32,000 nt of DNA from Nitrososphaera viennensis EN76 (GCF_000698785.1 NZ_CP007536.1:240001-272000), one strand, 5' to 3'; numbered from the stretch's first letter, positions 9,862 to 24,400 are shown. The notes: a model not told the origin generated them from the letters alone. Translations and numbers: made by a program.

Positions 9862-10080
9862 ATGCCCAAGGCGCAGCCGTCGGTTTTCATACTGTGCGAG
9901 GCCTGCCGCTGGTGCGCCACTTATACAGACAAGTCCAGGGCGGGCGACAGGTGCGCCACGTGCTCCGGCTCGGTGCTTTCCAGCTTTCCGATAATGCCCG
10001 ACGAAGCGTTCACCTTCAGCTATGACGAAAAGCGCGGGGTGGAGCTGGACTTTTTCAGGCGCGCCTCACCTAAAGCCTGA
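9862..10080 (+). CDS. small zinc-ribbon protein
   Basis: 72 aa with CEACRWC....CATCSG (CxxC-x16-CxxC). Confidence 0.45.
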   Translation: MPKAQPSVFILCEACRWCATYTDKSRAGDRCATCSGSVLSSFPIMPDEAFTFSYDEKRGVELDFFRRASPKA

Positions 10081-10799: not shown

Positions 10800-11504
10800 G
10801 GCTCTGTTAACTTAGGGTAATCTGTATAGCTAGGACTGTCCTAGCTTTTCATTGGCATGAGAAAGAGGACAGACCCAGCTATAATCAGATATGCACTGTA
10901 CCTGTATTTTAATTCTAGGAGCTTTCGGCTGGCAGCCAGATCGCTATCACCAATAAAGAGAAGGAGCCACGTTGCTGTATGGAAATGGGTACAGAAATAT
11001 TCCAGCCTTGCAGACAGGTTCCGGACAGACAGACGCCTTGTCAGGGCAATATTTGTTGACGAAACACTATTGCAGATAGATGGGCATGACTATTGGCTAT
11101 GGATAGCGTACGAACCAACTATTGGCACATGCTTGATGATGCATCTGTCTCGTGAGAGGACCATTTTCGTATGTTACCAGTTCTTCAAGCAGTTGCAAAG
11201 GAGGTATGGAAGGAGGCCGATATTCACAGACGGTGCTCAGTGGTACAATGATGCTTGCAGGTGGCTCAGATTACGCCATTATGTGTACGGTACAGAATTG
11301 AAGAATTTGATGGAGCGGTTTATACAGCATATCAAGGACAGGACGGAGTGTTTTGACGACCACTTTCCATGCAGGAAGGAGAATTGTGACAGACAGCATG
11401 TCTGGAACTGGTTCAAATTATTTTTACTGTACCTGCATATGGGCGCAGACATGATACGGTTTATGACATTCCTGGCCAAGGATGGTGGCTAAGTTAACGG
11501 AGCC
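10800..11504 (+). mobile_element. IS6-family insertion sequence, apparently intact
   Basis: Terminal inverted repeats GGCTCTGTTAACTTAG (10800-10815) and the reverse complement of 11489-11504 (GGCTCCGTTAACTTAG) match 15/16. They resemble the IS26-type end GGCACTGTTGCAAA. TTGCAAC is duplicated directly outside both ends (10793-10799 and 11505-11511). Single DDE transposase ORF, with its stop inside the right IR. Size 705 bp. Confidence 0.85.
10857..11492 (+). CDS. IS6-family DDE transposase
   Basis: 211 aa. FVDETLLQIDG (D), IFTDGAQWYNDA (D), NLMERFIQHIKDR (E), with an N-terminal HTH-like segment. Confidence 0.85.
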   Translation: MRKRTDPAIIRYALYLYFNSRSFRLAARSLSPIKRRSHVAVWKWVQKYSSLADRFRTDRRLVRAIFVDETLLQIDGHDYWLWIAYEPTIGTCLMMHLSRERTIFVCYQFFKQLQRRYGRRPIFTDGAQWYNDACRWLRLRHYVYGTELKNLMERFIQHIKDRTECFDDHFPCRKENCDRQHVWNWFKLFLLYLHMGADMIRFMTFLAKDGG

Positions 11505-18886: not shown

Positions 18887-18978
18887 GGGCTCGTAGCTCA
18901 GCATGGATAGAGCGCCTGCCTTCTAAACGTCCTGTTGAAGACAGCCGGAAGTCGTGGGATCGAAGCCCACCGGGCCCG
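18887..18978 (+). tRNA. tRNA-Arg(TCT) with a 17-nt anticodon-loop intron; integration target
   Basis: Acceptor GGGCTCG/CGGGCCC (one T-G pair), D-arm GCTC-AGCATGGATA-GAGC, anticodon stem CCTGC with loop CTTCTA.A (anticodon TCT), ~17-nt insert containing hairpin CTGT-TGAAG-ACAG, 3' stem GCCGG (one T-C mismatch), variable AAGTC, T-arm GTGGG-ATCGAAG-CCCAC. 92 - 17 = 75 nt. Confidence 0.7.
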
Positions 18979-18981
18979 CTT
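18970..18981 (+). repeat. attL core (CCGGGCCCGCTT)
   Basis: Exact 12-mer shared with 24389-24400. It covers the last T-stem base, the 3' acceptor strand, the discriminator and 3 nt downstream of tRNA-Arg. Confidence 0.6.
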
Positions 18982-19081
18982 TTTCCACTTATCGAGTCCA
19001 TGCCTTAAAAGCGCAGAAAATACGAAATTAGCGGAGGGAAAACAGGGAAACAAGAGCTGCAAGAAAAGAAGCAAGGATCTT

Positions 19082-20041
19082 TTGAAGGACGACGATGTAA
19101 GGAGATGGTACGAAAACCTGTGCCGCAGCAGCAAGCTGAACGCAGATGTATATCTGCGCAGGCTGAGGCTCTTTTGCGAGCAAAGGCACACGACACCAAG
19201 CAAGCTCGTCACCATCGGTACCGCCAACCCAAAGCAGGTCGAAGACATGCTGCATGACCACGTTCAGCAGCTGGAGACTGAAGGTTACGCGCCATCCTAC
19301 ATCAAGGGTGTCCTAAAAGCAGCCAAGTCGTGGCTTTCGTACAACTATGTCGAGCTGAAACGCAAGATAAAGGTGGCAAACGCAGATATGGCAATCACCT
19401 TGCAGGACGAAAGGGTGCCTACAAGGGAAGAGCTGAAAGCCGTACTGAATCATGCTTCGGTAAGAGCAAGGGCAAGTGCAGGCCTGATCGCATTTGCCGG
19501 ATTGAGGCCGCAGGTTCTGGGAAACGCTTCTGCTTCCGACGGGCTGACTGTTGGAGATATACCCGACCTGAAGATAGTCGACGGAAAAGCTGTGTTCCAG
19601 ACAGTGCCGGCGATGGTCATCGTAAGGTCAACATTGAGCAAGGCGCGTCACCGGTACTTTACGTTCCTTACAAGCGAAGGGTGTGAATATCTGGCTGCAT
19701 ACCTTGACAAGAGAATTGCCAGCGGTGAGACCATCAACGAAAGTTCAGCTGTGATGACCTTGAGCCAAGGCTACCTGATGAAAGGGAGGAACAAAGACGC
19801 TGGCAAGAAGTTCATCACCACACCTGCAATCACAAAAGAGATCAGAGAAGCCATGCTGCCAGTAATCAAGGCTAGGCCGTATGTCCTGAGGGCATACTTT
19901 GACACACAACTGTTGTTAGCTGAAAGCCAGGGCAAGATTGCACACGCGTACAGACAGTTCTTCATGGGCCACAAGGGAGACATCGAAGCCCGGTACACTA
20001 CGAACAGGGAAGGCTGCCTGACGAGCTTTTATCAGACATGA
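19082..20041 (+). CDS. tyrosine recombinase/integrase (catalytic core)
   Basis: AGLRPQVL (Arg I), SKARHRYFTF, PYVLRAYF (box with Arg II), FMGHKGDIEARY (His/Tyr nucleophile). The track ORF starts at 18935 inside the tRNA. TTG 19082 is the first canonical start downstream of the tRNA (MKDDDVRRWYENL). The 3' end appears frameshifted (see findings). Confidence 0.8.
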   Translation: MKDDDVRRWYENLCRSSKLNADVYLRRLRLFCEQRHTTPSKLVTIGTANPKQVEDMLHDHVQQLETEGYAPSYIKGVLKAAKSWLSYNYVELKRKIKVANADMAITLQDERVPTREELKAVLNHASVRARASAGLIAFAGLRPQVLGNASASDGLTVGDIPDLKIVDGKAVFQTVPAMVIVRSTLSKARHRYFTFLTSEGCEYLAAYLDKRIASGETINESSAVMTLSQGYLMKGRNKDAGKKFITTPAITKEIREAMLPVIKARPYVLRAYFDTQLLLAESQGKIAHAYRQFFMGHKGDIEARYTTNREGCLTSFYQT

Positions 20042-20421
20042 GAAGAGCCTTCCGAGAATCAGAACGATTCCTGAGTACGGCCACAGCGGAGGTCCAAGAA
20101 CAAGACAGAAAGGAAATACTGCTTGAAATGTGGAGGGAGCAGGCCAAGCTGTACGGCATCGACCCGATGAAGATAAAGATAGAAAAGCAAAGAGAAGACA
20201 GCAAGCCTCTTGGCATCGAAGATGAAATGCTTGCGATAAAGGACGCGATTGCAAGGGCAAGGGAGCTGGATGAAGAAGAAAAGTACAAGAGCAGGATCTT
20301 GGCAGACGAAGAAGAGCTTGTCTCCTATGTCCAAGATGGATGGGACATCGTAAAGGAGCTGAAGAGCGGCAAAGTTCTTGTCAGGAGGAAGAAGGTTTAC
20401 TGTCATCCACTAGCAGTTTAA
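20038..20421 (+). CDS. ORF that probably continues the integrase in a shifted frame (C-terminal tail/extension)
   Basis: The frame stays open upstream of its ATG and reads ..EQGRLPDELLSDMRRAFRESERFL. This is the type of segment that normally follows the catalytic Tyr of such integrases. It overlaps the integrase stop by 4 nt. Confidence 0.5.
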   Translation: MRRAFRESERFLSTATAEVQEQDRKEILLEMWREQAKLYGIDPMKIKIEKQREDSKPLGIEDEMLAIKDAIARARELDEEEKYKSRILADEEELVSYVQDGWDIVKELKSGKVLVRRKKVYCHPLAV

Positions 20422-20739
20422 GCGCGTCTCTACCGCCTCTTCCTTCTTTTTGTATGCATCTTCGGATATCTCTGACAAGAGTACGTTGACCAGTTTCAGA
20501 TAAGGTTGGATGGCGCTGCTTACAATCAAGTCGACAAATTCATGCCGCAGGGTCTGTAGCGCTTCCTCGACATCTAACGAATAGAGAATGGTGTCGCCAA
20601 CAACCTTTCCTTCATTCTCTGAATCTGATTTGGGAGACCAGACAACCTTAAACTCGGTCTTTATTCCTGCCCTATCTTTTAGCCTTTCCAGCTCTTTTTC
20701 AAGGATGAAGGAGCCGTTTTGTTCAAGTCTTGGATTCAT
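20410..20739 (-). CDS. hypothetical protein
   Basis: 109 aa from ATG 20739 (MNPRLEQNGSF...). Charged, protein-like composition, no recognised motif. Convergent with the integrase region. Confidence 0.45.
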   Translation of the reverse strand: MNPRLEQNGSFILEKELERLKDRAGIKTEFKVVWSPKSDSENEGKVVGDTILYSLDVEEALQTLRHEFVDLIVSSAIQPYLKLVNVLLSEISEDAYKKKEEAVETRLNC

Positions 20740-20813
20740 TGCCAAGTGATAAGTCAAATGTATAAAAGCCGTGAAACAGCTGAAACTTGGTGCAAGCCGG
20801 GAGCATGGTTTTT

Positions 20814-20854
20814 CGCCTTAAATATTTTGGATGCATATTATAGCGTAGCGTAAA
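20814..20854 (+). repeat. 41-nt module R, copy 1 (contains TATA-like CTTAAATATTT)
   Basis: CGCCTTAAATATTTTGGATGCATATTATAGCGTAGCGTAAA matches copy 2 at 33 of 41 positions (hand alignment, no gaps). Confidence 0.75.
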
Positions 20855-20947
20855 TCATGGCAAAAAGCCTGCCAGGGACAGGGGGATCGTAGTAGCACCG
20901 GCCTCGAATTATGATTTGCTTGGAAAAATGCAGTTTTGTTGCGTGAT

Positions 20948-20968
20948 GCATCAAAGAACCTAAATACA
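20948..20968 (+). promoter_or_regulatory. 21-nt module S, copy 1: BRE/TATA-like GCATCAAAGAACCTAAATACA
   Basis: 20/21 identical to 21208-21228. A purine-rich tract is followed by a TAAATA box, as in archaeal promoters. Confidence 0.4.
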
Positions 20969-21031
20969 AGCTACGTAGGCAGCATAAGACAATCGTCGAC
21001 TATTCTGCTGCAAAAATCGGGCGTCGATTTC

Positions 21032-21072
21032 CGCCTTAAATATTTACGATGTGTATTATGGTGTAGTATAAA
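21032..21072 (+). repeat. 41-nt module R, copy 2
   Basis: CGCCTTAAATATTTACGATGTGTATTATGGTGTAGTATAAA, 33/41 identical to 20814-20854. Confidence 0.75.
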
Positions 21073-21115
21073 CTAAGAACCGAACGACTGTTGTCCGTCA
21101 GGACAAAAACCTTGT

Positions 21116-21388
21116 TGGTACCAGTGGTACCAGAAGAACGCGGTGCCGTAGCACTAACCTATTTTGAAATATCCTTTCTCTAAAGCAGTGTGGTCTTGGT
21201 GCCCCGGGCATCAAAGAACTTAAATACATGATATATAAGGAACGGCTAAACCAATGGCATCAGTGGTGCCACTCCTGCAGGCGGGTGTCAAATTTTGATA
21301 CCAGAGCGTGAATATGTGGTACCAGTGGTACCACTGGTACCAACTTTCAACAGGATGGACACTCTGCCTGGTACCAGCGATGGCACCA
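21116..21388. repeat. cluster of at least 10 copies of the palindromic 8-mer TGGTACCA (iteron-like)
   Basis: Perfect copies at 21116, 21125, 21317, 21326, 21335 and 21369 (start positions). One- or two-mismatch copies are TGGCATCA 21255, TGGTGCCA 21264, TGATACCA 21296 and TGGCACCA 21381. Adjacent copies are mostly spaced 9 nt apart. I saw no perfect copy elsewhere in the window. Confidence 0.9.
21208..21228 (+). promoter_or_regulatory. 21-nt module S, copy 2: GCATCAAAGAACTTAAATACA
   Basis: 20/21 identical to 20948-20968. BRE/TATA-like. Confidence 0.4.
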
Positions 21389-22016
21389 GACAGGATCGAG
21401 TGATACGCCGATGCATAGCCTGCCAACGGTGGGAAATAACATGAAGAACAACGGTCGTGGCCACGACTTGATACGCCTGACAATGCACGATCCGTAGGAT
21501 GCGCTACCAGACCGGTTAATCCCTAGCTCGGCAGAATGATCGGAAGAATATTTGCCGTCGCAGAGCACTGTTCTTGCGCTTTCAGACGCTGCTCTAGTTC
21601 TGCGGCTGAATGCAGAGATATTGAATATGTACCTACAATGCAAAATGATATTGCTGCTGGTGCCAGACATTCTCCCCGCATTATCCATTTTCATGTCAAG
21701 TTTTCTTTTACCTTATCATACATCTTATATCTGTCCAACTACGTTGTATGCTAAGATTCTACCGTTTGCTTACGATTGATATTTGCCCTAACTCTGTAAC
21801 TTCGCTCCCCTATTTTCTATCTGCAATCCGTTCTTTGCGTTGTGCATGGTAATAATCCATGTCCAATTTTCTATTCACACAATTCTCGATGGTACTGTTC
21901 CACATCTGTTAGCTACTACAATATATCATAGCTATTTTGGAAGAATCCTTTGATTCCTTGACTGCCCTTCTATTATTCCGTATGCTCTGGATAGCAGCAT
22001 TGCTAGCAAAAAATAA

Positions 22017-22265
22017 TCATACTCCAAGAATCTTCTTGATCTCTTCGATCATGCGCGGATTGAGCGACACCTGCATACCGTAGCTTGTAGGCTTTGGCAG
22101 GATGAACCCTATCTTTATCAGCTTGTGAACTTCGTCTTCAACTTCGCCGCGCATGTGCTTTGGAAATCCTTTCTTGAGGTTTTCAATGGCGGTGTGCTTG
22201 CCGCCTATGATGGTGTCTTTGAGCATTCTCTCCAGTACCGTCTTCTGGACGGGATTCACGGCCAT
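22017..22265 (-). CDS. small wHTH-like DNA-binding protein
   Basis: 82 aa from ATG 22265 (MAVNPVQKTVLERML...). The C-terminal HKLIKIGFILPKPTSYGMQVSLNP looks like a recognition helix plus wing. Divergent from the next wHTH gene. Confidence 0.45.
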   Translation of the reverse strand: MAVNPVQKTVLERMLKDTIIGGKHTAIENLKKGFPKHMRGEVEDEVHKLIKIGFILPKPTSYGMQVSLNPRMIEEIKKILGV

Positions 22266-22353
22266 AGTTACAAGCACTGATTTATATAATAATCATGACA
22301 TACATGACGTAAGGTAACGACATATTATATAGCGGCCATCGCATAGCTATGGC
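22266..22353. promoter_or_regulatory. divergent promoter region of the two element-borne wHTH genes
   Basis: Opposed TATA-like boxes TTTATATAATAA and ATATTATATAG, direct repeat CATGACA-TA-CATGACG, and a 10-bp palindrome CATAGCTATG abutting the 22354 start. Confidence 0.4.
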
Positions 22354-22719
22354 ATGGCAAGAAAGAAAGAGTTGGAAAAGGCGTTAGAATCAGGCCCGCT
22401 TGAGCGCCTGTTTGCCGGAAACGCCACGGCAAAGATTTTGGACTTTCTGTCGACATTTAGAGAGTTCGACTATTCAGAATCAGATATCGCAAGGTATTCC
22501 GGCGTTTCCATAAGGCATGCGCAGCGAGAGCTTCCCAAGCTGGAACGGCTGAAGCTGATAAAGATGACGAGGATATCCGGTAAATCCAAGATGTACAGGA
22601 TGGACGCAGAGTCGCAGACAGGCATGACGGCAAGCAAGTTTGGACTTGCATTGGCCAGCATTGAAGTGGACAGCGTACTGGCTAAGGAGAAGCAGAAAGA
22701 AAAGCCGCTGACAGCCTAG
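22354..22719 (+). CDS. winged helix-turn-helix transcriptional regulator
   Basis: AKILDFLSTFREFDYSESDIARYSGVSIRHAQRELPKLERLKLIKMTRISGKSKMYRM. It has the same layout as the chromosomal regulator at 6754..7080. Confidence 0.6.
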   Translation: MARKKELEKALESGPLERLFAGNATAKILDFLSTFREFDYSESDIARYSGVSIRHAQRELPKLERLKLIKMTRISGKSKMYRMDAESQTGMTASKFGLALASIEVDSVLAKEKQKEKPLTA

Positions 22720-22726
22720 GCTTTTC

Positions 22727-22747
22727 AATCTCCACTACTTGGAGATT
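22727..22747 (+). terminator. stem-loop after the wHTH gene
   Basis: AATCTCCA-CTACT-TGGAGATT (8-bp stem) starts 8 nt after TAG 22717-22719. Confidence 0.4.
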
Positions 22748-22909
22748 TCAACTTTAACTTCGACCCGCAAGCAGCGTCGACGGGGCGGGGCCCTCTGAGA
22801 CAGACAGGACAGGCGGCAGGCCAGGGACTCGCGACGTCAAGACTCGCCAAGTCACGCCACATCTAGAGCGTGCAATCCTTCTGGCCGAGTTAAACCAGCT
22901 TGAATGGAT

Positions 22910-22932
22910 GAGAGGCTCCGGCCTCTCTTTTT
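22910..22932 (+). terminator. intrinsic-terminator-like hairpin plus T5
   Basis: GAGAGGC-TCCG-GCCTCTC followed directly by TTTTT. Confidence 0.5.
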
Positions 22933-23056
22933 ATAATACATATCGACAGCATGTCTATATCCCAACTGTCTGCCTCGCCCTCCCGCTTGGAGGGCTCGGC
23001 CACGGTTGGCTTTAAACCCTCAGAGAGAGATATCCCAAAGAAAGAGTGATAGTACC

Positions 23057-23617
23057 TCATACCACTTCAAGTTCTGCAACTTTGACAGGTTTGGTAAGAG
23101 CGAAGTCCGTATTTTGCACGTCCTTGGGCTTGAATACATAGATGAACATCGTGTATTTTCCGACAGTGTCCGGATGCCACATTGAATCGATGCTATATTG
23201 TGTACTTCCTGCAATCGTTGCATTATTCATGACATTTACCACTTCATTCCCATCCCCATCTCTTACCTGAAGCACCACTACATTCTCCACATTCTTTTCA
23301 GAAGGATTGGTGAAGACTGCGTGTAGTGTGATTGGCTGTCCATTTTTTATTTGCAGACTCTGTTCGATTGTGCCTATCTTCTCTCCGTTTTCATTTTTTG
23401 CAGTCACTTCAGATAATGCCAGTAGGGGAGATGTAGCATTATTGGTGGCAGCACCGTTGTTGTTTCCCTCGACATTGTTATCGCTTCCGTTAAAACCGGA
23501 AGATTTTTGGTCTGATAATGTTCCGTACGCCAGGTATGCTGATAACGCACCTAATGCTATTATGACGCCTACCAAGATTACGATTACTTTTTTGCCGGAT
23601 TTTGAATGTTGTTCCAT
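23057..23617 (-). CDS. N-terminally membrane-anchored extracellular protein with CARDB-like beta-sandwich domain
   Basis: MEQHSKSGKK plus hydrophobic VIVILVGVIIALGALSAYLAY, an N/S/G-rich linker, then ITLHAVFTNPSEKNVENVVVLQVRD...GSTQYSIDSMWHPDTVGKYTMFIYVF. This parallels the C-terminal domain of the 12849..15587 protein (VSISATFKNYQNKPQNYVYITQVEK...GQTETVSRSWTTPVEPGNYAIKLFVW). Confidence 0.6.
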   Translation of the reverse strand: MEQHSKSGKKVIVILVGVIIALGALSAYLAYGTLSDQKSSGFNGSDNNVEGNNNGAATNNATSPLLALSEVTAKNENGEKIGTIEQSLQIKNGQPITLHAVFTNPSEKNVENVVVLQVRDGDGNEVVNVMNNATIAGSTQYSIDSMWHPDTVGKYTMFIYVFKPKDVQNTDFALTKPVKVAELEVV

Positions 23618-23689
23618 GGATGTTCCCTAATATAGAAACAGAATAAACAAATGAACAATAAAAAAATTATGGAGGTTGCTACTACTGCC

Positions 23690-24334
23690 TCACCAAATCT
23701 GAGCTCCGTTGCTTTTAGTAGCACCGTTATACCCTATCTGGAAGTTGCCCGGTGTTCCGAGGTAAGTAACCCCATAGCTTGCATTGTTTGTTCCAACACA
23801 ATTCTTGTTAACATATGCATCATCCCAGTTGCTAAATGTGACTCCGTCACCTGCAACACGTGTAGCTTTCAAGAGAGTCTGCACTGTTACCAAGCCTAAG
23901 GTCTGAGTATTTGAGTTGGGTCCAAACCCGTTGCTTTCTGCGAAAATAAATGTGTCACTTGCCACGCTGACAGAACTAGAACCTATAGCCATTGTTTGGA
24001 GCTGACCTGTATTTTTGTCGTTGAACCACGCTTCCCATCTGCTTGCACTGCTAATGTATATCAGAGAAATCTCTACTTGATGTCCCGCCACCGGAGTTAT
24101 GCTTGAAACACCTAGTATCTGCCCTCCTTTTCCCCATGCAAACTGAAAGACATTGGGATTATAGCCCGACCCACCTCCTGAAGTAAACGATCCGTAATAC
24201 ATTCCTGCCTCATAGTAATTGGCATCGTTTCCTACAAAGGCCACATGGATGTTGACGCCATTTGATGAATTGCCACTGCTCTGTATTGTTGAGATTGTTG
24301 AGTATATAATCCGCCTGCACAACACCGCAAGCAT
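23690..24334 (-). CDS. hypothetical beta-rich protein, possibly concanavalin-like/peptidase-G1-like fold
   Basis: Start set at ATG 24334 (MLAVL...), because the longer track ORF would cross the attR repeat. The motif order VAFVGND..YYEAG, FQFAWGKGG, NDKNTGQ, FIFAESNGF loosely parallels G1 (eqolisin) family blocks. Function call is weak. Confidence 0.4.
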   Translation of the reverse strand: MLAVLCRRIIYSTISTIQSSGNSSNGVNIHVAFVGNDANYYEAGMYYGSFTSGGGSGYNPNVFQFAWGKGGQILGVSSITPVAGHQVEISLIYISSASRWEAWFNDKNTGQLQTMAIGSSSVSVASDTFIFAESNGFGPNSNTQTLGLVTVQTLLKATRVAGDGVTFSNWDDAYVNKNCVGTNNASYGVTYLGTPGNFQIGYNGATKSNGAQIW

Positions 24335-24388
24335 GTCCGAAATCAACCGTTTGAGTTCGGACTCGATATCTGGAGAATCAGGGAACCG

Positions 24389-24400
24389 CCGGGCCCGCTT
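24389..24400 (+). repeat. attR core (CCGGGCCCGCTT)
   Basis: Exact copy of 18970-18981. A 7-bp inverted repeat GTCCGAA..TTCGGAC lies just inside it (24335-24362). Confidence 0.6.

What the first reader, a model, noticed from the sequence alone, without database searches (positions are those of the whole stretch)
21116..21388. Dense array of the palindromic octamer TGGTACCA (iteron-like) within 270 bp
There are six perfect and at least four near-perfect copies. They are arranged as doublets or a triplet with 9-nt (once 12-nt) spacing: 21116/21125; 21255/21264; 21296; 21317/21326/21335; 21369/21381. I found no perfect copy elsewhere in the 32 kb. The ORFs predicted over it translate the repeat as WYQWYHWYH and are almost certainly artefacts. 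Roughly one-helical-turn spacing of a dyad-symmetric site is what is expected for cooperative binding of a dimeric DNA-binding protein. It could be a replication origin, a partition (centromere-like) site or a master operator of the element. The two wHTH proteins encoded 0.6-1 kb downstream are obvious candidate ligands.
Basis: seen in the sequence. Interest (0 to 1): 0.7.

Follow-up and report, generated by a model that had tools for sequence, protein, structure and literature searches.

The report
Palindrome array in an archaeal mobile element
A tight cluster of TGGTACCA palindromes is real and forms the core of a conserved non-coding control region in a small mobile element of the soil archaeon Nitrososphaera viennensis; it is most likely a set of docking sites for a DNA-binding protein that has not been identified.

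Summary
All 6 exact TGGTACCA copies in the 32 kb lie in 21116-21376 (0.28 expected). With degenerate units there are 11.

The window is Nitrososphaera viennensis EN76. The array lies in the unannotated 1.26-kb gap of the published integrated element NitVie-E1 (window 18970-24400, tRNA-Arg).

Related elements carry the same roughly 700-bp non-coding module (21025-21722). It is more conserved than integrase third codon positions. Unit number varies from 5 to 17. I counted 42 exact octamers in 5.3 kb of modules against 3 in 199 kb outside them.

The working unit looks like a 17-bp dyad: two octamers 9 bp apart. Two dyads bracket a TATA-like box.

No ORF is conserved, no Rfam family matches, and there is no covariation. 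Stems are invariant in sequence. This favours sequence-specific protein sites on DNA over a structured RNA.

The downstream wHTH pair is a separate, portable cassette. It occurs without the array, and the array occurs without it.

Whether the module acts as operator array, origin or both is unresolved, and the ligand is unknown.

Verdict: a real, previously undescribed cis-element of a known element class. Moderate interest.

The parts
21116..21388 (.). Array of TGGTACCA-type octamers: 6 exact and 4 degenerate units (TGRYRYCA). They are arranged as doublets or a triplet with 9-nt spacing, once 12-nt.
21025..21722 (+). Conserved non-coding module that contains the array. It is present in L051, L061, L065, L066/67 and, partly, in L064, L068 and L069. 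Block identity is 0.7-1.0, except where units are gained or lost.
21116..21132 (.). 17-bp dyad A, TGGTACCAgTGGTACCA. It sits in the most conserved stretch of the module.
21197..21213 (.). 17-bp dyad of the same architecture, TGGTGCCccgGGCATCA. It ends 5 bp upstream of the TATA-like box at 21219.
21255..21271 (.). 17-bp dyad B, TGGCATCAgTGGTGCCA (TGGCACCAgTGGTGCCA in relatives). It starts about 29 bp after the TATA-like box, over the expected transcription start.
21317..21342 (.). Triplet of exact octamers, equal to two overlapping 17-bp dyads (g-type and c-type).
21369..21388 (.). Octamer pair with 12-nt spacing (TGGTACCAgcgaTGGCACCA), conserved in all relatives.
21658..21665 (.). Isolated unit, TGGTGCCA here and TGGTACCA in L061 and L066.
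21114..21344 (.). Segment bounded by a perfect 19-nt inverted repeat, GTTGGTACCAGTGGTACCA / TGGTACCACTGGTACCAAC.
21219..21226 (+). TATA-like box CTTAAATA (P4), invariant in the 7 relatives whose sequence reaches it.
21035..21042 (+). TATA-like box CTTAAATA (P2), inside the second copy of the 67-nt direct repeat.
20817..20824 (+). TATA-like box CTTAAATA (P1), inside the first copy of the 67-nt direct repeat (20788-20854 / 21006-21072).
21091..21106 (.). Conserved inverted repeat TTGTCC-N4-GGACAA. The arms are nearly invariant (one mismatch, in L065) and the centre varies (GTCA, GCCA, ACTA).
21142..21155 (.). Conserved inverted repeat GGTGC-CGTA-GCACy.
18887..18978 (+). tRNA-Arg(TCT) with intron, the integration target. 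attL CCGGGCCCGCTT lies at 18970-18981.
   Evidence: PMC6563490 Table S2
24389..24400 (+). attR copy of CCGGGCCCGCTT, the published right end of NitVie-E1.
19082..20421 (+). Tyrosine integrase, split in this genome by a 1-nt deletion near 20006 into ORFs 19082-20041 and 20038-20421. Relatives have a single ORF of 437-490 aa.
20410..20757 (-). ORF115, a conserved partner convergent with the integrase across the family. It has an invariant HEFxD motif and no DNA-binding fold was detected.
22017..22719 (.). Divergent pair ORF86 (minus strand, 22017-22265) and wHTH ORF121 (plus strand, 22354-22719). It is a portable cassette, not a constant partner of the array.

Best explanation
The array is the core of a conserved non-coding, cis-acting module (window 21025-21722). 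The module belongs to the NitVie-E1 type of small tRNA-integrating elements of Nitrososphaera.

The functional unit is not the octamer but a 17-bp dyad with 7-bp arms and a 3-bp centre, TGGyrCC-NNN-GGyrCCA. A sequence-specific dimeric protein binds these dyads on double-stranded DNA. Several dyads plus single octamers, spaced in steps of 9-12 bp or about 21 bp, would allow cooperative loading.

Two dyads bracket a TATA-like box. One ends 5 bp upstream of it, next to where a BRE would lie. The other covers the expected start site. The remaining units lie just downstream.

The most likely action is therefore control of a promoter inside the module, by repression or a switch. Building a larger nucleoprotein complex that could also mark the element's replication or maintenance site is possible.

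Shown here:
- the array exists;
- it is specific to the module;
- it is conserved;
- it is non-coding;
- it has dyad architecture;
- it varies in copy number;
- it is independent of the wHTH pair.

Inferred: protein binding, promoter activity, and the regulatory or origin role. The ligand is unknown. By co-inheritance, the weak candidates are ORF115 or the integrase C-terminal domain, or else a host factor.
For: Specificity. All 6 exact copies lie in 260 bp against 0.28 expected. There are 42 exact copies in 5.3 kb of modules against 3 in 199 kb elsewhere. Six 17-bp dyad matches lie in the module and only two weak 2-mismatch matches elsewhere in 32 kb.

Conservation. The module recurs in five full and three partial relatives. 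Its 20-nt block identity is 0.7-1.0. Integrase third codon positions show 0.59-0.63.

Non-coding. No ORF stays intact in relatives.

The dyad is the unit. TGGCACCAgTGGTGCCA and TGATACCAgTGGTATCA keep 7/7 cross-symmetry while each octamer loses its own palindromy.

The constraint is on sequence, not only on pairing. Of 33 putative stem pairs, 25 never vary, none changes on both sides, and the counts are no better than shuffles. RNAalifold gives a covariation term of +0.85. Fold z-scores are -1.4 and -0.95. There is no Rfam match.

Each orthologous site keeps its own variant sequence across elements, as graded operators do.

Copy number runs from 5 to 17 units among elements whose modules are about 75-85% identical.

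Promoter context. Three of the six CTTAAAWA boxes in 32 kb lie in this gap. The tRNA and the gene at 9862 have such a box 38-44 nt upstream, and the box at 694 lies just before the ORF at 725. The dyads at 21197-21213 and 21255-21271 flank the box at 21219.

Analogy. More distant relatives of the element family carry other short-repeat arrays: CTGACAG doublets inside a Prim-Pol gene, and TAGGGCCCTA twice around TATA-like boxes upstream of what reads by eye as an AbrB-like ORF.
Against: No ligand is identified.
- No recognisable repressor, Rep or Par gene is constantly linked to the module.
- The ORF115 model (pLDDT 76) shows no DNA-binding fold.
- L154/L155 have an integrase that is 89% identical but no module.

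The symmetric double changes in some dyads, and a G.U / A-U / G-C series at one pair of the 21197 dyad, are also what a hairpin in RNA or single-stranded DNA would give.

All four TATA-like boxes point the same way and a T-rich stretch ends the module. The module could therefore be transcribed and act as RNA.

The roughly 330 bp downstream of the array (21390-21722) is conserved without any octamer. Binding sites alone do not explain that.

The promoters are consensus matches only. No expression data were found.
Confidence: 0.5

Rival explanations
1. The module is one or more non-coding RNA genes. Transcription would start about 30 nt after the TATA-like boxes at 21035 and 21219 and end at T-rich stretches near 21160 and 21690-21712. 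The octamer doublets would be 7-bp hairpins with 3-nt loops. The RNA could act as a regulator, a protein sponge or a replication primer.
For: - Four promoter-like boxes lie on the same strand.
- The whole 700 bp is conserved, including 330 bp with no octamer.
- There is no coding potential.
- Several doublets keep the 17-nt symmetry through paired changes.
- One pair shows G.U / A-U / G-C, and the loop of the 21091 hairpin varies while its stem does not.
Against: - RNAalifold gives a covariation term of +0.85, with 1 of 167 pairs compensatory.
- The curated hairpins show no two-sided change and are no better than shuffles.
- The MFE is not better than shuffles.
- There is no Rfam match.
- The stems are invariant in sequence although neutral sites differ by about 40%. 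That is not expected if only pairing mattered.
- The T-tract after 21155 is broken in L065 and L066.
Confidence: 0.2
2. The array is the replication origin of an element that has no Rep gene. The dyads would be ORB-like boxes read by the host Orc1/Cdc6 or another host initiator. The 19-nt inverted repeat would bracket an AT-rich region that unwinds.
For: - The doublet junction ACCAGTGGT shares CCAGTGG with the Pyrococcus mini-ORB TTCCAGTGGAAC (PMC1904270) and with the common ORB motif TCCA[CG]T[TG]GAAA (PMC4164010).
- Inverted copies flank 193 bp that include stretches with GC of 0.37-0.42.
- The element encodes no recognisable replication protein.
- Krupovic et al. 2019 note that many such elements lack an obvious Rep.
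- Copy-number variation is typical of iterons.
- A distant relative that has a Prim-Pol carries an iteron-like array.
Against: - The Pyrococcus core motifs TTCC and GAA are absent (TACC and GTA here), and so is the G-string. The match is a 7-mer.
- No orc1/cdc6 gene is nearby.
- The ORB sequence of Nitrososphaera could not be examined.
- Nothing shows that this element replicates on its own.
- Its integrase is frameshifted here.
Confidence: 0.15
3. The sites serve recombination rather than replication or transcription. They could be accessory (arm-type) sites for the integrase, whose family has an extra C-terminal domain of about 120 aa. Or they could be folded hairpin sites in the manner of integron attC.
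For: - The module always travels with this integrase subgroup and ORF115.
- In L154 the integrase C-terminal part (72%) and ORF115 (63%) are more divergent, and the module is missing.
- Integron integrase is among the best structural matches.
- In L065, cargo genes sit between the two 67-nt repeats.
Against: - The array lies 2.1 kb from attL and 3.0 kb from attR as published, too far for arm sites.
- Arm sites are normally not palindromic.
- Cre and lambda Int match the integrase model about as well as IntI does.
- The conserved residues of the C-terminal domain are shared with relatives that have no TGGTACCA.
Confidence: 0.07
4. The array is selfish or neutral repeat DNA. It could be a MITE bounded by the 19-nt inverted repeat, or palindromes amplified by slippage, with no function.
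For: There is a perfect 19-nt inverted repeat. Units are gained and lost between relatives.
Against: - No other copy occurs in the window or in 199 kb of related loci.
- No relative lacks just the 231-bp segment.
- Each orthologous site keeps its sequence well above the neutral level.
Confidence: 0.05

Closest known systems
Cryptic integrated element NitVie-E1 of Nitrososphaera viennensis EN76 (Krupovic et al. 2019, PMC6563490)
   Same: It is the same locus. The published coordinates 258970-264400 of CP007536 equal window 18970-24400. The att site is CCGGGCCCGCTT in tRNA-Arg(TCT), and the seven annotated genes coincide with the ORFs seen here.
   Different: In the text and supplements I searched, the paper lists genes only. 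The 1.26-kb gap 260758-262016, the array and the conserved module do not appear there. My comparisons also suggest the element is modular. Integrase, ORF115 and the module form one block. The wHTH pair is a separately mobile cassette.
Operator arrays of temperate phages and archaeal viruses or plasmids, such as lambda OR/OL (from my own knowledge, not tested here)
   Same: Several dyad-symmetric sites of one family, each with its own conserved variant, sit on and around a promoter. The spacing allows cooperative binding.
   Different: No cognate repressor gene sits next to the sites. There are many more sites (5-17) and their number varies. The promoters appear to drive no protein-coding gene.
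Iteron origins, such as lambda ori with four dyad-symmetric O-binding sites and iteron plasmids (Konieczny et al. 2014, as cited in PMC6563490)
   Same: A clustered array of short sites with variable number, in a mobile element, next to AT-richer DNA.
   Different: There is no initiator gene. The sites occur in both orientations. Replication has not been shown.
Archaeal ORB / mini-ORB boxes bound by Orc1/Cdc6 (PMC1904270, PMC4164010)
   Same: A dyad core CCAGTGG, multiple copies, and inverted copies around a less GC-rich stretch.
   Different: The flanking TTCC...GAAA and the G-string are missing. No orc1/cdc6 gene is adjacent. The 9-bp tandem packing is not an ORB feature.
TGGTACCA clusters in bacterial phage contigs (IMG/VR; loci L013, L027, L035, L043, L026, L016, L034)
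   Same: The same octamer occurs as doublets 9-10 bp apart in non-coding DNA of mobile elements. In the GC-rich group the cluster lies between a D5-type primase-helicase gene and HNH/terminase genes.
   Different: The hosts and genes are unrelated. These contigs were found by searching for the motif itself, so the resemblance may be convergence or chance.

Membership tests
Thaumarchaeal cryptic integrated element (NitVie-E1) | Integrase next to a tRNA gene, flanked by direct repeats of the tRNA 3' end, at the published coordinates | tested here: met
   tRNA found. The 12-nt repeat lies at 18970 and 24389. The integrase matches phrog_1 and has the Cre / IntI / lambda Int fold. Coordinates and genes match Table S2 and S1 of PMC6563490.
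Iteron-type replication origin | Array of repeated initiator-binding sites | tested here: inconclusive
   Repeats are present, with 5-17 units. They are palindromic and occur in both orientations. Binding was not tested.
Iteron-type replication origin | Cognate initiator (Rep) gene linked to the iterons | tested here: not met
   No Rep-like family was found in any element ORF with Pfam, PHROGs, NCBIfam or PDB sequence searches. The wHTH pair is not co-inherited with the array.
Iteron-type replication origin | Autonomous replication conferred by the region | not testable with these tools
   This needs cloning or marker-frequency analysis.
Archaeal ORB / mini-ORB origin | Match to the ORB consensus (TCCA[CG]T[TG]GAAA, with TTCC and GAA cores, often a G-string) | tested here: not met
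   Only CCAGTGG is shared. The flanks are TACC and GGTA, and there is no G-string (sequence; motifs).
Archaeal ORB / mini-ORB origin | Adjacent orc1/cdc6 gene, or Orc1 binding | tested here: not met
   The published NitVie-E1 gene list has no orc1/cdc6, and the Pfam scan of ORFs between 15.8 and 24.4 kb found none. The rest of the window was not scanned. Binding is not testable here.
Repressor operator array | Dyad-symmetric sites of one family | tested here: met
   Six 17-bp dyads lie in the module.
Repressor operator array | Sites overlap core promoter elements | tested here: inconclusive
   Dyads lie 5 bp upstream and 29 bp downstream of a conserved CTTAAATA box. The promoter itself is unverified.
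Repressor operator array | Cognate regulator gene linked to the sites | tested here: not met
   No HTH, RHH or AbrB gene is constant next to the module. The neighbours differ: the wHTH pair, DUF6788, or HxlR/HTH_45 in L065.
Partition centromere (parS / parC) | Adjacent ParA-type ATPase and centromere-binding protein genes | tested here: not met
   No such genes are found in the element.
Structured non-coding RNA | Match to a described RNA family | tested here: not met
   Rfam gives nothing at gathering thresholds, and only chance-level hits at E of 2.4-4.5.
Structured non-coding RNA | Base pairs supported by compensatory change | tested here: not met
   None of 33 curated pairs changes on both sides, and the counts equal the shuffles. 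RNAalifold finds 1 of 167. Power is low: 5 sequences and 8.
MITE / insertion element | Terminal inverted repeats plus dispersed copies or empty sites | tested here: not met
   A 19-nt inverted repeat is present. There is no second copy and no relative lacking just this segment.
Protein-coding gene | An ORF kept intact in relatives | tested here: not met
   All 11 ORFs of 25 aa or more in the module are broken or change length by non-multiples of 3 in relatives.

The most novel reading that the evidence does not exclude
The module is the complete replicon of a minimal archaeal mobile element that encodes no initiator. One possibility is that the dyads are degenerate ORB-like boxes that hijack the host Orc1/Cdc6. 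Another is that a transcript from the internal promoters primes replication, ColE1-style. In either case the variable octamer array would set copy number or incompatibility. This would be the first defined origin of a thaumarchaeal extrachromosomal element and a starting point for a vector for ammonia-oxidising archaea.
Probability: 0.12. Interest if true: 0.75.

Novelty: new member of a known kind. Interest (0 to 1): 0.45.

Why it matters
Mobile elements of ammonia-oxidising archaea are known almost only as gene lists. For most, nobody knows how they are regulated or replicated. No genetic system with a replicating vector exists for Nitrososphaera, to my knowledge.

This is a compact, conserved cis-acting module with a defined 17-bp site. 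It gives a concrete handle. The site can be used as bait to fish out the binding protein. The module can be tested directly for promoter control and for autonomous replication.

If it is only an operator array, it is an ordinary kind of element in an under-studied lineage. If it is an origin, it has practical value.

Tried and rejected
- Coding. All ORFs over the array are broken in relatives.
- Known RNA family. Rfam found nothing at gathering or permissive thresholds.
- RNA structure. RNAalifold, curated hairpin counts and MFE z-scores gave no support.
- wHTH pair as ligand. Rejected as the default on co-occurrence.
- A second att site near 21700-22011 for a 3-kb minimal element. No tRNA-like repeat was found there. 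The published 5.4-kb boundaries were kept.
- DUF6788 remnant in 21722-21930. No tblastn signal.
- Integrase C-terminal domain. No Pfam family in 54 homologues. The fold search was dominated by the catalytic domain.
- Module in other collections. Absent from IMG/VR by two conserved 22-24-mers. Absent from GenBank phages and PLSDB plasmids. Absent from 80 metagenomic relatives found through ORF115. The integrase has no relative in phages or plasmids.
- Restriction-site avoidance. GGTACC outside the array occurs 4 times against about 4 expected.
- Literature. No paper describes a TGGTACCA array, and I found no TSS or ncRNA data for N. viennensis.

Full report
**1. The observation.**
TGGTACCA occurs exactly six times in the 32-kb window, at 21116, 21125, 21317, 21326, 21335 and 21369. 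Dinucleotide-preserving shuffles give a mean of 0.28 and never more than 2. With one mismatch, further units appear at 21264, 21296, 21381 and 21658, and 21255 has two mismatches. A perfect 19-nt inverted repeat, 21114-21132 / 21326-21344, extends beyond the palindromes themselves.

**2. Where the array sits.**
- A tRNA with an intron lies at 18887-18978.
- It is followed by a tyrosine integrase. The integrase matches PHROG 1, and its model matches Cre, IntI and lambda Int.
- Next comes a convergent 115-aa ORF (20410-20757, minus strand).
- Then a 1.26-kb gap with no credible gene (20758-22016).
- Then a divergent pair of small genes, one of them a weak wHTH.

ORF115 is 100% identical to a protein of Nitrososphaera viennensis on a 2,527,938-bp contig. 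Table S2 of Krupovic et al. 2019 (PMC6563490) lists the cryptic integrated element NitVie-E1 at 258970-264400 of CP007536, 5431 bp long, with att CCGGGCCCGCTT in tRNA-Arg(TCT). The same 12-mer lies at window 18970 and 24389. The window is therefore CP007536 240001-272000. The seven annotated genes match the ORFs seen here, and nothing is annotated in the gap. The element is known. The array is not mentioned in what I read of that paper.

**3. Relatives.**
I fetched related loci in three ways:
- homologues of the wHTH protein with their contigs;
- an exact 19-mer scan of 185,579 genomes;
- homologues of the integrase and of ORF115.

A non-coding module homologous to window 21025-21722 is present in full in L051, L061 (a Nitrososphaera MAG), L065 and L066/L067. 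It is present in part in L064, L068 and L069, where the contigs end. All of these carry the octamers. The number of TGRYRYCA units is 5 in L065, 11 in the window and L051, 13 in L066 and 17 in L061.

Across all thaumarchaeal loci fetched, 42 exact octamers lie in 5.3 kb of modules and 3 in the remaining 199 kb. The motif is therefore not common. The full genome could not be scanned.

**4. Non-coding but constrained.**
Every ORF of 25 aa or more in the module is interrupted in relatives, or changes length by a non-multiple of three. Yet mean pairwise identity in 20-nt blocks is 0.7-1.0 along most of the module. Integrase third codon positions in the same comparisons are only 0.59-0.63 identical. 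Identity collapses only in the middle of the array, where whole units are inserted or deleted. The roughly 330 bp after the array (21390-21722) is also conserved, although it contains a single isolated unit.

**5. Anatomy.**
The doublets are 17-nt dyads. Several variant doublets (TGGCACCAgTGGTGCCA at two paralogous positions, and TGATACCAgTGGTATCA) keep perfect 7/7 symmetry across the pair, while each octamer alone is no longer a palindrome. The unit that is kept is therefore the 17-bp dyad, with 7-bp arms and a 3-bp centre.

A pattern search for that architecture finds six sites in the module and only two weak 2-mismatch matches elsewhere in 32 kb. One of the six is a previously unlisted site at 21197-21213, TGGTGCCccgGGCATCA.

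The gap also holds four TATA-like boxes, all on the plus strand: CTTAAATA at 20817, 21035 and 21219, and CCTAAATA at 20959. The window has only six CTTAAAWA in total. The tRNA and the gene at 9862 have such a box 38-44 nt upstream, and the box at 694 lies just before the ORF at 725. The motif is therefore a plausible local TATA box.

The box at 21219 is bracketed by two dyads. One ends 5 bp upstream of it. The other starts 29 bp after it, about where transcription would begin.

The boxes at 20817 and 21035 lie inside a 67-nt direct repeat. L066 has one hybrid copy of this repeat, and L065 has three cargo genes between the two copies. The repeat therefore looks like a place where the element is rearranged.

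**6. DNA site or RNA structure?**
- RNAalifold on five modules gives a covariation term of +0.85 kcal/mol, with one compensatory pair out of 167.
- I defined five local hairpins by hand and counted them on eight sequences. Cells are 97.5% paired. Of 33 pairs, 25 never vary, none changes on both sides, and the scores equal the shuffles.
- Minimum free energies of the best-conserved 103 nt are no better than shuffles on either strand, with z-scores of -1.4 and -0.95.
- Rfam finds nothing.

With about 40% divergence at neutral sites, a structure-only constraint should have left compensatory changes. Instead both arms are fixed in sequence, and each orthologous site keeps its own variant. That is the pattern of sequence-specific recognition, as in sets of operators with graded affinities.

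The case is not closed. The paired changes among paralogous dyads, a G.U / A-U / G-C series at one pair of the 21197 dyad, and the one-directional promoter-like boxes would also fit hairpins in a transcript. With only 5-8 sequences the tests have little power.

**7. Who binds?**
The ORF86/ORF121 pair is a block of about 0.8 kb (window 21927-22745). It appears with the same boundaries directly after the tRNA with no integrase and no array (L053), beside TnpB (L054/55), and at about 70% identity beside restriction-modification genes (L056-58). None of these has an octamer. L052 begins at the ORF121 gene and has cas6/cas3 downstream, so its upstream side is unknown. Conversely, L065 has the module but not the pair. 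This does not exclude binding, but it removes the reason to expect it.

The only constant neighbours of the module are the integrase and ORF115.
- ORF115 has an invariant HEFxD motif. Its model (pLDDT 76) has one long helix pair and a small sheet. Its best fold matches are weak ones to 105-110-residue minigluzincin peptidases. Nothing is DNA-binding.
- The integrase family (3269 proteins at E < 1e-10) normally has 437-490 residues, with an extra C-terminal domain of about 120 residues and unknown family.
- L154/L155 have an 89%-identical integrase core. Their C-terminal domain (72%) and ORF115 (63%) are more divergent, and they have no module. This is a single hint that those parts and the module travel together.
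- Eighty more distant relatives from metagenomes have no such module.

A host factor remains possible.

**8. What it does.**
I commit to a cluster of binding sites for a dimeric, sequence-specific DNA-binding protein, forming the control region of the element (confidence 0.5). The placement around a TATA-like box makes transcription control the best-supported action.

An origin function is the main alternative for the same sites.
- The element has no recognisable replication gene. Krupovic et al. noted this for many such elements.
- The doublet junction ACCAGTGGT shares CCAGTGG with Pyrococcus mini-ORB and the common ORB motif.
- Inverted copies flank a less GC-rich stretch.
- Against this, the ORB-defining TTCC/GAAA flanks and the G-string are absent, no orc1/cdc6 is near, and I could not look at the host oriC.

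Partition is unsupported because there are no par genes. Arm-type integrase sites are unlikely at 2-3 kb from the att sites. A MITE is unlikely because there is no second copy.

Some distant relatives of the element family do carry other short-repeat arrays. One has CTGACAG doublets in both orientations inside a Prim-Pol gene. Others have two TAGGGCCCTA palindromes around TATA-like boxes, upstream of what reads by eye as an AbrB-like ORF. Arrays of this general kind, with lineage-specific sequences, therefore recur in the family.

**9. Comparison and novelty.**
The host element is already published. The array and the 700-bp module appear to be undescribed. In kind it is a member of the familiar class of operator or iteron arrays of mobile elements, found in a lineage where no such cis-element has been characterised. 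It is not categorically new.

The same octamer also forms non-coding doublet clusters in several unrelated bacterial phage contigs. In a GC-rich group these lie between a D5-type primase-helicase gene and HNH/terminase genes. I found those contigs by searching for the motif itself, so the resemblance is a curiosity and not evidence.

**10. Verdict.**
It is a binding-site array of a mobile element, but the wHTH ligands are not supported, and origin versus operator is unresolved.
- Novelty: a new member of a known kind.
- Interest: 0.45.
- Most novel reading still open: the module is the whole replicon of a Rep-less archaeal element. Probability about 0.12, interest if true 0.75.

Noticed in passing
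window 19990-20045: The integrase of NitVie-E1 is frameshifted. A 1-nt deletion (AACAAGGG to AACAGGG, near 20006) splits it into ORFs 19082-20041 and 20038-20421. Every relative has one ORF of 437-490 aa. The element may be a fossil, or this may be a sequencing error.
   Followed up: yes
window 21927-22745; L052, L053, L054, L055, L056-L058, L066: The divergent ORF86 / wHTH-ORF121 pair is a portable two-gene cassette with sharp, shared boundaries. It is found next to cas6/cas3, TnpB and restriction-modification genes, and directly after a tRNA. ORF121 is arCOG01210, 'nucleotidyltransferase and HTH'. In L066 a Polbeta-type nucleotidyltransferase gene follows about 0.2 kb downstream, after a 73-aa gene. 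It may be a toxin-antitoxin or defence-island module.
   Followed up: partly
window 20410-20757 (minus strand) and homologues P0171-P0209: ORF115, always convergent with the integrase in this family, has an invariant HEFxD motif. It shows weak fold similarity (E of about 2, TM of about 0.4) to the minigluzincin peptidases abylysin and selecase. It may be a small metallopeptidase acting as a switch, like ImmA, but this is unproven.
   Followed up: partly
L013 13488-13672; L027 9165-9463; L035 12781-13080; L043 688-885; also L026, L016, L034: Unrelated bacterial phage contigs carry non-coding clusters of the same octamer TGGTACCA, with doublets 9-10 bp apart. In the GC-0.63 group the cluster lies between a D5-type primase-helicase gene and HNH plus terminase genes, so it could be an origin or a packaging site.
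   Followed up: partly
L137 2560-2740; L141 1286-1445: A distant relative of the element family has eight CTGACAG units, as doublets 8-12 nt apart in both orientations. They lie inside the linker of a 929-aa Prim-Pol gene, an iteron-like array within a replicase gene.
   Followed up: partly
L097 3670-3705 (same in L079, L089, L090, L098, L099, L109): Two copies of the 10-bp palindrome TAGGGCCCTA, 25 bp apart, bracket TATA-like sequence upstream of a small ORF that reads by eye as AbrB/SpoVT-like. This sits next to the ORF115 homologue of marine relatives.
   Followed up: no
L064 7166-7292 versus window 11378-11504: A contig from a 'synthetic metagenome' assembly that carries a 97%-identical integrase ends with 127 nt that are 100% identical to window 11378-11504 in reverse orientation. 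This is either an assembly chimera or a dispersed repeat.
   Followed up: no
window 18943-18981; L065 4817-4891; L068 4720-4820: Elements of this family sit in three different tRNA genes that share the last 29 nt, GTCGTGGGATCGAAGCCCACCGGGCCCGC. In the window this leaves a U.G pair in the acceptor stem. NitVie-E4 in the same genome uses the same core in tRNA-Phe (PMC6563490).
   Followed up: partly
window 21660-22016: This 350-bp stretch is AT-rich (GC 0.30-0.43). It is strongly pyrimidine-rich on the plus strand, with GC skew down to -0.48. It lies between the module and the stop codon of ORF86. In L051 and L065 it is replaced by a DUF6788 zinc-ribbon gene.
   Followed up: no
window 20788-20854 and 21006-21072: A 67-nt direct repeat (72% identical) carries the TATA-like boxes. 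L066 has a single hybrid copy. L065 has three cargo genes (HxlR, a 60-aa ORF and HTH_45) between the two copies. The repeat may be a recombination or cassette boundary.
   Followed up: partly
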